Shown: positions 6,001-9,000 of the stretch, one piece after another
Layout of the letters: every line of letters begins with the position of its first letter
How positions within the stretch are numbered: the stretch's first letter is position 1
Source of the DNA: Escherichia coli
GTDB lineage: Bacteria > Pseudomonadota > Gammaproteobacteria > Enterobacterales > Enterobacteriaceae
Reading direction: 5' to 3' (one strand)
NCBI RefSeq assembly: GCF_017348835.2
Contig: NZ_CP071375.1
Length of the DNA stretch: 64,000 nucleotides
Position numbers: made by a program

Positions 6001-9000
6001 AATAAGCAATTTCTCCTCATAGTCGTCTTCGCTATCGCCATCAGGCACATCGTTTTTACTTCTCCTCAGATACGATATGTAAAAATCGCGCCAGGCATCC
6101 AGATCCAGTTGCCCTCGCTTATTCGATATCGGGGCACCCGGCAATTTCTGCAATCTGCGAAGCTGGCGATCGGTCAGACTTAAATGCCTGGCAACTTCAG
6201 TCTGCGTAGCCACTCCTCACCTCGCAAAAACTCTCACCTCACAATCACAACAAAACCGGTCATGTCCGGTTTACATGTCTGTTTTTTGTTCATGTCCGGT
6301 TCACAGAAGACCTGTTTTTATATTTTTCATATAGTTAACTTGAAGAGAAACCGGACATGGATCCCGGAAAATTTTCATAAATAGCGAAAACCCGCGAGGT
6401 CGCCGCCCCGTAACCTGTCGGATCGCCGGAAAGGACCCACGAAAATGATAATAATTATCATCTACATGAGGTTTATCACGACATGTGTGTACGCCATCAA
6501 ACCACGAGAAATAATCAATTATTACGCAGGTATCGTATTAATTGATCTGCATCAAATTAGCGTAAAAGCAACTTCAGATAATACAAATCAGCAACACTGA
6601 ATACGGGGCAACATTATGTCATCAAAGAACAGAACCCGCAGAACAACAACCCGCAACATCCGATTTCCAAACCAGATAATTGAACAAATTAACATCGCTC
6701 TTGACCTGAAAGGTTCAGGTAATTTTTCAGCGTGGGTTATTGAAGCCTGCAGAAGAAGATTAATTAATGAAAAATATTCTCAATTTGTACCCAACAAAGA
6801 CAAACACGACCAGAGCACCTGTTCAGACAGGTTTACTTAAACGACTTATATATGACACAAAAAGCGACCACTAAAGTCGCTTTTTCTTATGGTAACAGGC
6901 AATAACTCTCTCAGATATTTTTTAGCATTTTTTTGACCGCGCGTTTCCGGACGTATTCTGTTCTCCTGTCCCTTTATATCGTCGGAATACCCGCCGCTCT
7001 TCAAATCCCATTCCCAACTCAGAATGTAGTCTGTTGACCGCTTGTTTTATTTCGGTCAGGTTCACCGGTGAAACCGGAGTCCGGCGCGCCTTACGCAAAC
7101 ACTCTGCTCGTTTCTGTGCCGCCACTTTTCTTTTCTGGTCATCACTTAGCTGTACCATCACTTTTGCCCATCGTTCAGCTGCTCTCCGGTACAGTCCTTT
7201 TTTCTCCAGACATTCTGCCACGTGATCATGTAGCATAAGTGACCTCCGATTATCTACAGACTGCCATCCTGAATTTACCTTCCCTTAATGAAATAACAAT
7301 AAAAAACAAACCACGCAAAAACAATAAAATAACACACAAAAAAAACTAAATAATAAACAAAAATAATCACCTTATTTTATTATTTTTTGAGGGGGCAATT
7401 ACTGAACAAAAAACGCTGACTATATACTCAAAACCAAACAACTATTCTGCCAATCAGGTATCATGGCAACACACGGAATTACCGTGTTTTTGCCTTCTCT
7501 GCCCATACAATACGGGCATATACTTCATACTCTATTGTAATATTTCTATCCATGCGCCCCACTCCATTTACCTGTAAATAATATTCAAAATATTTATCAC
7601 AGAAATCGTTTTTGGCCATGAACTGAGCACACTATAAAGTCCGGAACTGACTCTTTGTTAAATTACCTTAACGTTACCAGTAACACCTTCATAACAAAAC
7701 ATCACGGTATACACTGGGTACGGATATATTCCTGTGCTCCTTCCAGTTGCTTCTGCATTGCCATCAGCCGTTCTCTGAGGATGAAATAATCCCGTTCAGC
7801 GGCTTCTGCCAGTCGGGGACCGGTTGCATTATCCACGCCGGAGGTGATGGGGGCTTTACGCAAGGAGCCTGGACAGTTGGCGTTGATGCGCAGGCGCTTA
7901 CGACCAGCGGCAACATCAGCACGCAGAGTTTCATTTTCAGCTCTCGCATCGGCTAATTCCCTCGAGTATCTGGCATCAAGTGCAGCGACATCACGCTGGC
8001 GTACCTGCATATCAGTAATTGTCGCGTTCGCCAGCTCCAGCTCACTGGCTTTTTTATCGCGCTGCTCTTTGTAGATGATGGCGTGATCACGGTAATGATT
8101 CAGCCCCAGACTAAGCGCACCACAGGCCACCAGCAGGACAATGATAACCACGCACAGAACACGGTTCATATCACCACCAACGGATTGCCCAGACCAGAAC
8201 AGCAATGGCCACAATACGAATGGCAAAAGCTGCCGCTCTTGTTAAATCCAGACTGGCTGGCGTCTCCACTTCAATGCCTTTCATAATGGACAACCTCAGA
8301 AAGAATCTTTTATACTTCCTCACAGGGAAAGTACCTCCCTACCCATAATTTCTCCCTTGCCTTACTCAAGGTCAGAAAACACAAAACCCCGCTTGCTGCC
8401 AACAAACGGGGTTTTTACTTTTATTCACTTAGGTTTTACCAGTTTTCAGGATTTCGTGTTATCCACCCGCGTTGGCCAACGTCATTTTTCAGGAAAATAT
8501 TCTGCTATCTGTCGATGTCCCAGCACGCCAGCGCGCTCTCCTGGTCACGCCGTGAGACCTGACCGTAGCAATTATTTGAACGGATACGGCAGTCTCTGCC
8601 ACCGTCCTTAATCCACCAGCGAATCGCCTCACAGGCACCTTTTCGATCGCCTGCATTAATTCGTTTATAAAACGTCGACGGGAAGCACTTACCGGGGCCA
8701 ATGTTGTACGGACAGAATGACGCGATCCCCGCTTTCTGGGGTTCGGTCAGCGGCACCCGGATGTTTTTCTCCACCCATGCCAGCGCCTTGTCACGTTCGA
8801 TGGCATTAACCCGGTCGCATTTTTCCTTTGACAGCTTCATGCCAGGAATAACAGGCTTACCATCCACCAGAATGGCACCACGGCAGATGGTCCAGATCCC
8901 CGCACCATCACGGTATGCCGTGGTGTGGTTACCTTCCTTTTCATCCAGAAACTGGTCGAGGATTTCAGGCGCAGAAGCACCTGCACCAATCAGCGCCAGA

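What the first reader, a model, noticed from the sequence alone, without database searches (positions are those of the whole stretch)
6922..7420. PerC-like (Pch-type) regulator gene next to cos, preceded by an A/C-rich low-complexity tract
A 104-aa PerC-family protein is encoded at the prophage end between Rz and cos. PerC homologs in EHEC prophages are activators of the LEE type III secretion regulon, so this would be a virulence-regulatory moron. Upstream of it (about 7290..7400) lies an unusual low-complexity stretch made almost entirely of A and C with poly-A runs, which could be a curved or H-NS-bound promoter region.
Basis: partly seen in the sequence, partly recalled or inferred. Interest (0 to 1): 0.45.

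Follow-up and report, generated by a model that had tools for sequence, protein, structure and literature searches.

The report
Known pchA gene and its promoter
This is an ordinary copy of pchA, a well-studied prophage gene that switches on the gut-attachment machinery of EHEC/EPEC E. coli, and the odd A/C-rich stretch next to it is the gene's own promoter.

Summary
Both parts of the observation are real. ORF 6922-7236 (- strand, 104 aa) matches Pfam PerC at E 3.8e-44. It is 100% identical to PchA (ECs_1091) of E. coli O157:H7 Sakai, 99/98% to PchB/PchC and 47% to EPEC PerC. It lies in a roughly 970-bp cassette (about 6751-7723) between Rz and cosN (6397-6408), where bor-type lambdoid prophages carry bor.

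The A/C tract (best limits 7291-7363: 53 A, 12 C, 7 T, 1 G) is the most A/C-skewed 80-nt stretch in the 64 kb (z 5.4). Published Cappable-seq data for EDL933 pchA, which differs at 1 of the 90 upstream bases, place the main transcription start at the equivalent of window 7289. That start was seen in all 8 conditions tested. The tract is therefore positions -2 to -74 of the pch promoter, not a leader.

Across 54 distinct cassettes the tract is 5-10 times more variable than its flanks, yet stays about 66-69% T on the sense strand. Phased-A-tract curvature is not supported, and H-NS binding is untested. The published DicF/anti-SD control site is intact, and a DicF gene lies at 25423-25474.

Verdict: already known, low interest.

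The parts
6922..7236 (-). pch coding sequence (104 aa, PchA-type, group 1 PerC homologue)
   Evidence: ORF list. Pfam PerC E 3.8e-44. 100% aa identity to Sakai PchA ECs_1091. 99/98% to PchB/PchC, 40% to PchE, 29% to PchD, 47% to PerC.
7243..7247 (-). Shine-Dalgarno GGAGG, 6 nt before the ATG
   Evidence: Read directly from the sequence. Invariant in all pch cassettes aligned.
7132..7157 (-). Site in the coding region (+80..+105) complementary to the 5' end of DicF. It includes the anti-SD stretch (+88..+101) that pairs with the SD region in the predicted mRNA fold.
   Evidence: Duplex and MFE computation. The mechanism was published for pchA (Melson & Kendall 2019, as summarised in PMC7769764). 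The CDS is nucleotide-identical to Sakai pchA.
7237..7289 (-). 53-nt 5' UTR from the main transcription start (P1, window 7289) to the ATG
   Evidence: EDL933 Cappable-seq gTSS 1271063 for EDL933_RS06260, present in all 8 conditions with signal 164-2240 (PMC10469882 Table S5 and file 8). Coordinates transferred by alignment.
7296..7301 (-). Candidate -10 hexamer TATTGT of P1 (-12..-7)
   Evidence: Position relative to the mapped TSS. Inferred; not mutated experimentally here.
7319..7324 (-). Candidate -35 hexamer TTGTTT of P1 (-35..-30, 17-nt spacer)
   Evidence: Position relative to the mapped TSS. Inferred.
7291..7363 (.). A/C-rich tract on the + strand, which is T/G-rich on the pch sense strand. 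It covers -2..-74 of P1 and includes a T8 run at -56..-49 (7338-7345) where the distal UP-element subsite would lie.
   Evidence: Composition statistics. TSS transfer. Diversity hotspot with conserved T-richness.
7264..7299 (-). Minor promoter P2: TTGTTA (7294-7299), 16-nt spacer, TAAATT (7272-7277), with minor starts at 7264 and 7274
   Evidence: EDL933 minor gTSS 1271038 (exp LB, stat salt) and 1271048 (stat M9). Hexamers read from the sequence.
6859..6885 (.). Bidirectional intrinsic terminator hairpin (AAAAAGCGAC..GTCGCTTTTT) shared by pch (-) and the ylcI-like gene (+)
   Evidence: RNA fold -17.3 kcal/mol, z -2.8, 11-bp stem followed by a U run. Conserved in Sp4/Sp11/Sp14.
6751..7723 (.). 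Extent of the pch cassette relative to a bor-type lambdoid prophage (Sakai Sp8)
   Evidence: blastn homology with Sp8 stops at window 7724 and resumes at 6750.
7479..7619 (-). 46-aa ORF of unknown function, co-inherited with pch (phrog_2157; formerly annotated EDL933_RS29835)
   Evidence: ORF list. PHROG E 2.3e-37. 373 contigs for the exact sequence. Only a weak TSS, in one condition, in EDL933.
7465..7494 (.). Stable hairpin straddling the stop codon of the 46-aa ORF. It has a T run, and so looks like a terminator, only on the + strand (7471-7487 plus TTTTT).
   Evidence: Terminator scan. Folds of -14.8 and -16.7 kcal/mol, z -3.8 and -4.2.
6616..6840 (+). YlcI/YnfO (DUF3950) gene, homologue of lambda orf64, convergent with pch
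   Evidence: Pfam PF13132 E 1.3e-17. NCBIfam NF041551.
6397..6408 (-). cosN cohesive-end sequence GGGCGGCGACCT
   Evidence: Single exact match; 0 expected in shuffles.
25423..25474 (+). DicF sRNA gene in the same window, the published trans-activator of pchA translation
   Evidence: Rfam RF00039, 76.7 bits against gathering score 48.

Best explanation
The locus is a standard group-1 pch cassette (pchA type) carried as a moron between the lysis genes and cos of a lambdoid prophage.

Shown here:
- The protein is identical to Sakai PchA.
- The cassette has its own promoter and its own terminator.
- The A/C-rich tract is the promoter. The main start site mapped in the near-identical EDL933 copy corresponds to window 7289, so the tract covers -2 to -74. 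That span holds a weak sigma-70-like core (TTGTTT, 17 nt, TATTGT) and a T-rich upstream half.

Inferred:
- In the lysogen this promoter gives constitutive basal transcription, which is modulated by the regulators published for pchA (Lrp/butyrate, LrhA, NtrC pathway).
- The T-rich upstream half acts as an UP-like or nucleoid-protein-binding region.
- Translation of the 53-nt-leader mRNA is held back by pairing of the SD region with an anti-SD stretch at +88..+101. It is released when DicF pairs at +80..+105.
- No - strand terminator lies between Rz and pch, so Q-antiterminated late transcription also reads into pch on prophage induction.

From the literature: PchA binds the LEE1 promoter region, loosens the H-NS complex and activates ler. 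[quoted passage not shown] The closest genome, aEPEC/ExPEC strain PE164, carries LEE.
For: Identity:
- Pfam PerC E 3.8e-44.
- 100% aa identity to Sakai PchA, and 865/871 nt identical across gene and flanks.
- Named 'PchABC family transcriptional regulator' in UniRef and seen on at least 1000 contigs.
- RefSeq protein WP_001303878.1 is the same accession in PE164 and EDL933.

Promoter:
- EDL933 gTSS 1271063 was detected in all 8 conditions (signal 164-2240), with minor starts at 1271048 and 1271038.
- The EDL933 CDS starts at 1271010. The 90 nt upstream differ from the window at 1 position.
- No promoter-like site scored better elsewhere upstream, apart from a 9/12 match at 7469-7441.

Terminator.

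Read-through:
- No - strand terminator-like site between 7702 and 7237.

DicF:
- Predicted pairing of DicF nt 1-26 with +80..+105, and SD pairing with +88..+101.
- Published mechanism (PMC7769764 and PMC7873438).
- DicF gene in the window.

Function:
- Pch displaces H-NS at LEE1 (PMC4764244).
- Lrp, LrhA and NtrC act on pchA.

Host: PE164 matches two large parts of the window at about 100% and is LEE+.
Against: - The TSS was mapped in EDL933, not in this strain. The transfer rests on 89/90 identity.
- The -35 and -10 assignments are weak matches (3/6 and 4/6) and have not been tested by mutation.
- UP-like or H-NS/Lrp/LrhA binding of the tract is not shown. A-tracts are out of helical phase, no H-NS high-affinity motif was found, and Lrp-like matches are no more than chance.
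- The primary papers on the pchA promoter (Honda 2009, Nakanishi 2009) and on DicF (Melson & Kendall 2019) were not available. Their details come from reviews.
- ler activation by this particular copy was not tested.
Confidence: 0.88

Rival explanations
1. The tract is transcribed as part of a long U/G-rich 5' leader from a promoter further upstream (for example TTGCCA-17-AATAGT at 7469-7441). It would then act post-transcriptionally, for example as an S1- or Hfq-binding or structure-forming leader.
For: The only 9/12 sigma-70-like match on the - strand lies upstream of the tract. Reviews speak of a 'pchA leader' structure. Long-leader folds can pair the tract with downstream A-rich coding sequence.
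Against: No gene-specific TSS upstream of the tract is listed for EDL933 pchA. The dominant TSS, seen in all 8 conditions, lies 53 nt from the ATG, just downstream of the tract. A more detailed review places the anti-SD in the coding region, not in an upstream leader.
Confidence: 0.05
2. The tract is a functionless low-complexity spacer: a slippage-prone recombination scar at the cassette's promoter-proximal side. Its composition has no regulatory meaning beyond happening to contain weak hexamers.
For: It is the most variable part of the cassette, with diversity 0.12-0.18 against 0.016-0.04 in the flanks and many homopolymer-length variants. No specific binding motif and no helical phasing were found.
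Against: The main TSS depends on sequence inside it. Extreme T-richness (about 66-69% T, 2-4% C) is kept in the pchA-, pchB- and pchC-type variants despite sequence divergence. A T-rich tract also precedes a 79%-identical plasmid homologue whose upstream DNA is otherwise unrelated.
Confidence: 0.07
3. The tract is an H-NS nucleation site or intrinsically curved silencer. pch would then be silenced by H-NS and need counter-silencing.
For: GC is 22% over 100 bp, among the five most AT-rich 80-nt stretches of the window. Horizontally acquired AT-rich promoters are typical H-NS targets (PMC4764244).
Against: The promoter is active in all 8 laboratory conditions in EDL933, which argues against tight silencing. 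There is no phased A-tract signal and no H-NS motif. No H-NS ChIP data for pch were found. This reading is compatible with the best explanation rather than exclusive of it.
Confidence: 0.3

Closest known systems
PchA (ECs_1091, prophage Sp4) of E. coli O157:H7 Sakai; EDL933_RS06260 / WP_001303878.1
   Same: Protein 104/104 identical, and the CDS is nucleotide-identical. 865/871 nt match over gene plus flanks, including the tract (1 mismatch), the 46-aa ORF, the SD and the terminator.
   Different: In Sakai Sp4 and EDL933 the lysis-pch segment is inverted and cut by IS629 just downstream of pch, which truncates ylcI. Here the cassette is in the intact Rz-pch-ylcI-cos-Nu1 order seen in Sp11 and Sp14.
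PchB (ECs_2182, Sp11) and PchC (ECs_2737, Sp14)
   Same: 99% and 98% aa identity. Same position between Rz and cos, and the same 46-aa ORF, SD and terminator.
   Different: Their promoter tracts differ from this one. The pchB type has a different upstream half and a TATAAT inside the spacer. The pchC type has several substitutions. This fits the published 'differential regulation of PchA and PchB' (Honda 2009; title cited).
PerC of the perABC operon, EPEC pEAF plasmid pMAR2
   Same: Same Pfam family. 47% identity over residues 2-88, with conserved LE..G..RRA..RW..M core. Same target, the LEE1/ler promoter (PMC4456613).
   Different: PerC is 89 aa and lacks the 15-residue C-terminal tail. It is the third gene of a plasmid operon, with no promoter tract of its own.
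PchD (ECs_1388) and PchE (ECs_1588)
   Same: PerC family.
   Different: Only 29% and 40% identity, and about 90 aa. They are embedded directly behind other genes in SpLE1 and Sp7, without the T-rich promoter tract. They are reported not to activate LEE (PMC6265319).
Lambda bor / lom-type morons
   Same: An accessory gene with its own promoter and terminator, inserted in the late region between Rz and cos. The pch cassette replaces the bor segment of Sp8.
   Different: pch points in the late-gene direction, so it can also be read through from pR'. It encodes a regulator rather than a surface protein.

Membership tests
PerC family (Pfam PF06069) | Significant full-length match to the family HMM above the gathering score | tested here: met
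   E 3.8e-44, 149.3 bits against a cut-off of 22.6; residues 1-89 match profile positions 1-89 of 90.
PerC family (Pfam PF06069) | Conserved N-terminal core residues shared by PerC and PchA-E | tested here: met
   16 invariant columns, including L10, E11, G14, R17, R18, A19, R22, W23 and M27, in the alignment with PerC and PchA-E.
Group-1 Pch (PchA/B/C) | 104-aa protein nearly identical to Sakai PchA/B/C, including the C-terminal tail that PerC, PchD and PchE lack | tested here: met
   100/99/98% identity to PchA/B/C. The tail GTGEQNTSGNARSKKC is present.
Group-1 Pch (PchA/B/C) | Location in a lambdoid prophage between the lysis genes and cos | tested here: met
   Rz/Rz1 at 7702-8169, cosN at 6397-6408, Nu1 at 5704-6213. 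Same layout as Sp11 and Sp14.
Group-1 Pch (PchA/B/C) | Activates LEE1/ler transcription and adherence | not testable with these tools
   Known for the identical protein (PMC4764244; PMC4456613). The closest genome, PE164, is LEE+.
DicF-activated pchA mRNA | An anti-SD element in the coding region that pairs with the SD, overlapped by a DicF-complementary site | tested here: met
   In silico only. SD region pairs with +88..+101, and DicF nt 1-26 pairs with +80..+105 at -24.9 kcal/mol. The CDS is identical to Sakai pchA.
Moron (autonomous accessory cassette in a phage late region) | Own promoter active in the lysogen | tested here: met
   By transfer from EDL933 Cappable-seq: the TSS is present in all 8 non-inducing conditions, and the 90-nt upstream sequence differs by 1 nt.
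Moron (autonomous accessory cassette in a phage late region) | Own terminator, and replaceable relative to related phages | tested here: met
   Terminator hairpin at 6859-6885. The cassette at 6751-7723 replaces the bor segment of Sp8.
Intrinsically curved / H-NS-nucleating promoter | A-tracts phased at about 10-11 bp | tested here: not met
   No spectral peak at 10-10.5 bp. Tract centres are spaced 15.5, 8.5, 14 and 19.5 bp apart.
Intrinsically curved / H-NS-nucleating promoter | High-affinity H-NS motif (TCGATAAATT-like), or demonstrated H-NS occupancy | tested here: inconclusive
   No motif within 2 mismatches in 7200-7500. No ChIP data were found for pch. The 22% GC is compatible with H-NS binding.

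The most novel reading that the evidence does not exclude
The T-rich promoter tract may be a mutational tuning knob. Homopolymer-run indels and substitutions are concentrated in -40..-160: T6 to T8 upstream of -35, and a spacer that is one nt shorter in a few loci. These would give each otherwise identical pch copy its own expression level or regulator response, so that strains with several pch prophages hold a graded set of LEE activators. A possible extra layer is antisense transcription. In EDL933, + strand starts were recorded at the equivalents of window 7070 and 7242. Such transcripts would cross the promoter as a C/A-rich RNA and could stop at the + strand terminator at 7471-7492.
Probability: 0.2. 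Interest if true: 0.35.

Novelty: already known. Interest (0 to 1): 0.1.

Why it matters
[quoted passage not shown] Finding a copy simply marks the host as a likely attaching-and-effacing E. coli that lacks the plasmid perABC route. The closest genome is the LEE+ aEPEC/ExPEC strain PE164.

The one small addition here is the link between the conspicuous A/C tract and the mapped promoter, together with the finding that this promoter is the variable part of an otherwise frozen cassette. That gives a concrete handle for explaining why pch copies are regulated differently. It does not open a new question.

Tried and rejected
- **Rfam:** no family matched in 6200-8400 at E <= 1, so the locus holds none of the Rfam-curated prophage sRNAs, AgvB, AsxR and Esr41 included. 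That sRNA is reported in Sakai prophages Sp9, Sp10 and Sp12, not in the pch-bearing Sp4, Sp11 and Sp14.
- **Tree 2014 Hfq-CLIP supplement:** no entry at the pch intergenic regions.
- **Fukui 2016 supplement:** no H-NS occupancy data for pch.
- **Primary papers:** Honda 2009, Iyoda 2004 and Melson & Kendall 2019 are not held. Sy 2020 dRNA-seq supplements are not held.
- **Duplex folding:** unrestricted RNAduplex of DicF against the mRNA gave meaningless 90-nt 'duplexes'. It was replaced by 26-nt windowed duplexes.
- **Curvature and binding motifs:** the A-tract phasing, H-NS motif and Lrp consensus scans gave nothing above background.
- **Deposited phage genomes:** a tblastn search found only one partial record carrying a PerC homologue. 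Diversity was taken from IMG/VR prophage contigs instead.
- **Solved structures:** no PDB relative by sequence; best hit was a MarR protein at E 0.083.
- **Structure prediction:** the AlphaFold model (mean pLDDT 76; residues 1-50 at 88-94; four helices) had no Foldseek match to the PDB below E = 1, so the fold gave no mechanistic lead.
- **Second A/C-skewed stretch:** the stretch at about 55127-55220 is ordinary coding sequence of a MATE transporter on the - strand.
- **Small + strand RNA:** a small RNA between the tract and the 7471-7487 terminator was considered. No + strand TSS at the equivalent positions appears in the held parts of the EDL933 tables, which are truncated.
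Full report
**1. The observation**

The - strand ORF at 6922-7236 encodes 104 aa, starting at an ATG with GGAGG 6 nt upstream. It matches Pfam PerC (PF06069) over the full profile at E 3.8e-44.

The gene order on the - strand, which is the phage late direction, runs as follows:
- holin and lysozyme (lysozyme at 8505-9038)
- Rz (7702-8169) with the embedded Rz1 (7764-7949)
- a 46-aa ORF (7479-7619)
- the low-complexity tract
- pch
- a hairpin terminator (6859-6885)
- a convergent YlcI/DUF3950 gene (6616-6840, +), which is the lambda orf64 homologue
- cosN GGGCGGCGACCT (6397-6408)
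- Nu1 (5704-6213) and the large terminase subunit

The A/C tract is real. Its best limits are 7291-7363, holding 53 A, 12 C, 7 T and 1 G. It is the most A/C-skewed 80-nt stretch of the whole window, at 70 of 80 bases against a mean of 41.4 and sd of 5.3. It also has the fewest G of any 80-nt stretch. Beyond about 7372 the DNA is still AT-rich but contains T runs.

**2. Identity of the gene**

The protein is 104/104 identical to PchA (ECs_1091) of O157:H7 Sakai. The gene plus 550 nt of flanks is 865/871 identical to the Sakai Sp4 locus.

Identities to other family members:

| Relative | Identity |
|---|---|
| PchB | 99% |
| PchC | 98% |
| A plasmid-borne homologue | 78% |
| PerC of EPEC pMAR2 | 47% |
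| PchE | 40% |
| PchD | 29% |

The exact sequence is named 'PchABC family transcriptional regulator' and occurs on at least 1000 contigs. 670 of 5426 complete E. coli genomes carry at least 80% of the 1.3-kb locus.

This is therefore a known gene. It is one of the group-1 perC homologues that activate LEE1/ler (PMC4456613; PMC6265319). They act by binding the LEE1 promoter region and loosening the H-NS complex there (PMC4764244).

The closest genome is pig isolate PE164. It matches window 1-10277 at 99.95% and window 28600-53000 at 100%, although the second match lies at a different chromosomal place. PE164 is an atypical EPEC/ExPEC hybrid that carries LEE and no bfp (PMC12233904). A prophage Pch would be the PerC-type activator in that setting.

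**3. The cassette**

I compared the window with Sakai Sp8, a lambdoid prophage that carries bor at this position. Homology stops at window 7724 and resumes at 6750. The pch unit is therefore a cassette of about 970 bp. It holds the 46-aa ORF (phrog_2157, function unknown), the promoter tract, pch and the terminator.

No - strand terminator-like site lies between Rz and pch. Q-modified late transcription should therefore read into pch. This agrees with the report that group-1 pch genes rise on SOS induction.

**4. What the A/C tract is**

A published Cappable-seq study of EDL933 lists gene-specific transcription starts (PMC10469882, Table S5).
- For EDL933_RS06260, a PerC-family gene with CDS 1270696-1271010 on the - strand, the start at 1271063 is present in all eight conditions. 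These were exponential and stationary phase in LB, M9, acid and salt. The signals were 164-2240.
- Minor starts at 1271048 and 1271038 were seen in one or two conditions.

The EDL933 sequence from -90 to the ATG differs from the window at one base. This transfers the main start to window 7289, an A on the - strand, and gives a 53-nt leader.

The tract (7291-7363) is therefore -2 to -74 of the main promoter. Within it I read three elements:
- a -10 hexamer TATTGT at 7296-7301
- a -35 hexamer TTGTTT at 7319-7324, with a 17-nt spacer
- a T8 run at -56..-49, where the T-rich distal UP subsite would lie

The hexamer and UP assignments are inferences from position. The TSS itself is experimental, but it was mapped in another strain. 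The minor start at 7264 fits a second weak promoter, TTGTTA-16-TAAATT.

This rules out the alternative that the tract is a long U-rich leader.

**5. Conservation pattern**

I took 82 pch loci from Sakai, EDL933, PE164 and IMG/VR, which gave 54 distinct sequences. Mean pairwise diversity by region was:

| Region | Diversity |
|---|---|
| -160..-41 (window 7396-7277) | 0.12-0.18 |
| Remaining non-coding flanks | 0.016-0.04 |
| Coding region | 0-0.011 |

The variants include the pchA, pchB and pchC types and many homopolymer-length changes. Even so, nearly all keep about 66-69% T and 2-4% C on the sense strand over -135..-51. Two outlier loci (L067 and L073) fall to 56-61% T and about 11% C. A 79%-identical plasmid homologue with unrelated upstream DNA also has a T-rich tract.

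The composition, rather than the exact sequence, is what is kept. The variability fits the published differential regulation of pchA and pchB (Honda 2009, cited).

**6. Curved or H-NS-bound?**

A-tract centres lie at -14.5, -30, -38.5, -52.5 and -72. The A-tract periodicity spectrum has no peak at 10-10.5 bp. There is no match to the H-NS motif within 2 mismatches. Lrp-consensus matches (3 at 3 mismatches) are not clearly above the background of 0.8 per 300 bp.

H-NS binding is plausible from the 22% GC alone, but nothing found here or in the held literature shows it. The promoter's activity in all eight conditions also argues against tight silencing.

**7. Post-transcriptional control**

Reviews of Melson & Kendall 2019 describe an anti-SD element in the pchA coding region. 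It sequesters the SD and is opened by DicF.

In this copy, the SD region pairs with +88..+101 in the predicted fold. DicF nt 1-26 is complementary to +80..+105, window 7132-7157. A DicF gene lies at 25423-25474 in the same window.

**8. Protein mechanism**

No solved structure is related by sequence. An AlphaFold model is confident for residues 1-50, which form three helices, but has no significant Foldseek match in the PDB. Nothing is added to what is published.

**9. Verdict**

The only refinement is that the tract is the mapped promoter itself. It is not a demonstrably curved or H-NS-bound element. The feature is already known and of low interest.

Noticed in passing
window 25423-25474 (+): DicF sRNA gene (Rfam 76.7 bits), about 18 kb from pch in the same window. 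DicF is the published activator of pchA translation, so regulator and target are both carried on prophage DNA here.
   Followed up: partly
window 7465-7494, both strands: A stable hairpin straddles the stop codon of the 46-aa ORF. It has a T run only on the + strand, so it looks like a terminator for transcription antisense to pch. EDL933 tables list + strand starts at the equivalents of window 7070 (4 conditions) and 7242 (1 condition). An antisense RNA crossing the pch promoter is therefore possible but unproven.
   Followed up: partly
window 7479-7619 (-): A 46-aa ORF (phrog_2157, no Pfam match) is always co-inherited with group-1 pch. Its exact sequence occurs on 373 contigs. Only a weak, single-condition TSS is recorded in EDL933. 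Function unknown.
   Followed up: partly
window 10277-11587, 43761-45071, 56253-57562: Three copies of an IS3-family element (IS629/IS1203-like), each with an ALIL frameshift pseudoknot. Different parts of the window match PE164 at distant chromosomal places, which suggests IS- or prophage-mediated rearrangement relative to that assembly.
   Followed up: partly
window 3804-5789 (-): The large terminase ORF is intact in the window. The otherwise 99.95%-identical PE164 RefSeq record annotates it as frameshifted. The window is therefore not the same sequence version as that record.
   Followed up: no
window 13681-13853 (-), 14627-14873 (-), 18169-18343 (-): STnc100 sRNA, a cluster of three tRNA genes, and a sok antitoxin RNA lie on the Q/early-gene side of the lysis genes of the same prophage.
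   Followed up: no
window 36526-36655 (-), 38927-39132 (-): EFASI RNA, then C4 antisense RNA, isrK and c4-a1b1 matches. These point to a second, unrelated mobile element further along the window. Four identical-scoring tRNA hits lie at 31010, 54835, 57969 and 60376.
   Followed up: no
phage genome collection: Among 50,697 deposited phage records, only one 1.6-kb fragment encodes a PerC-family protein. IMG/VR prophage contigs hold 250 relatives. pch cassettes are therefore essentially known only from integrated prophages.
   Followed up: no
L003:33217-33360 (Sakai pchB upstream): The pchB-type promoter tract keeps the TTGTTT and TATTGT hexamers but has a perfect TATAAT inside the spacer. This could give a different start site from pchA. 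The EDL933 TSS rows for pchB and pchC were not retrieved.
   Followed up: no
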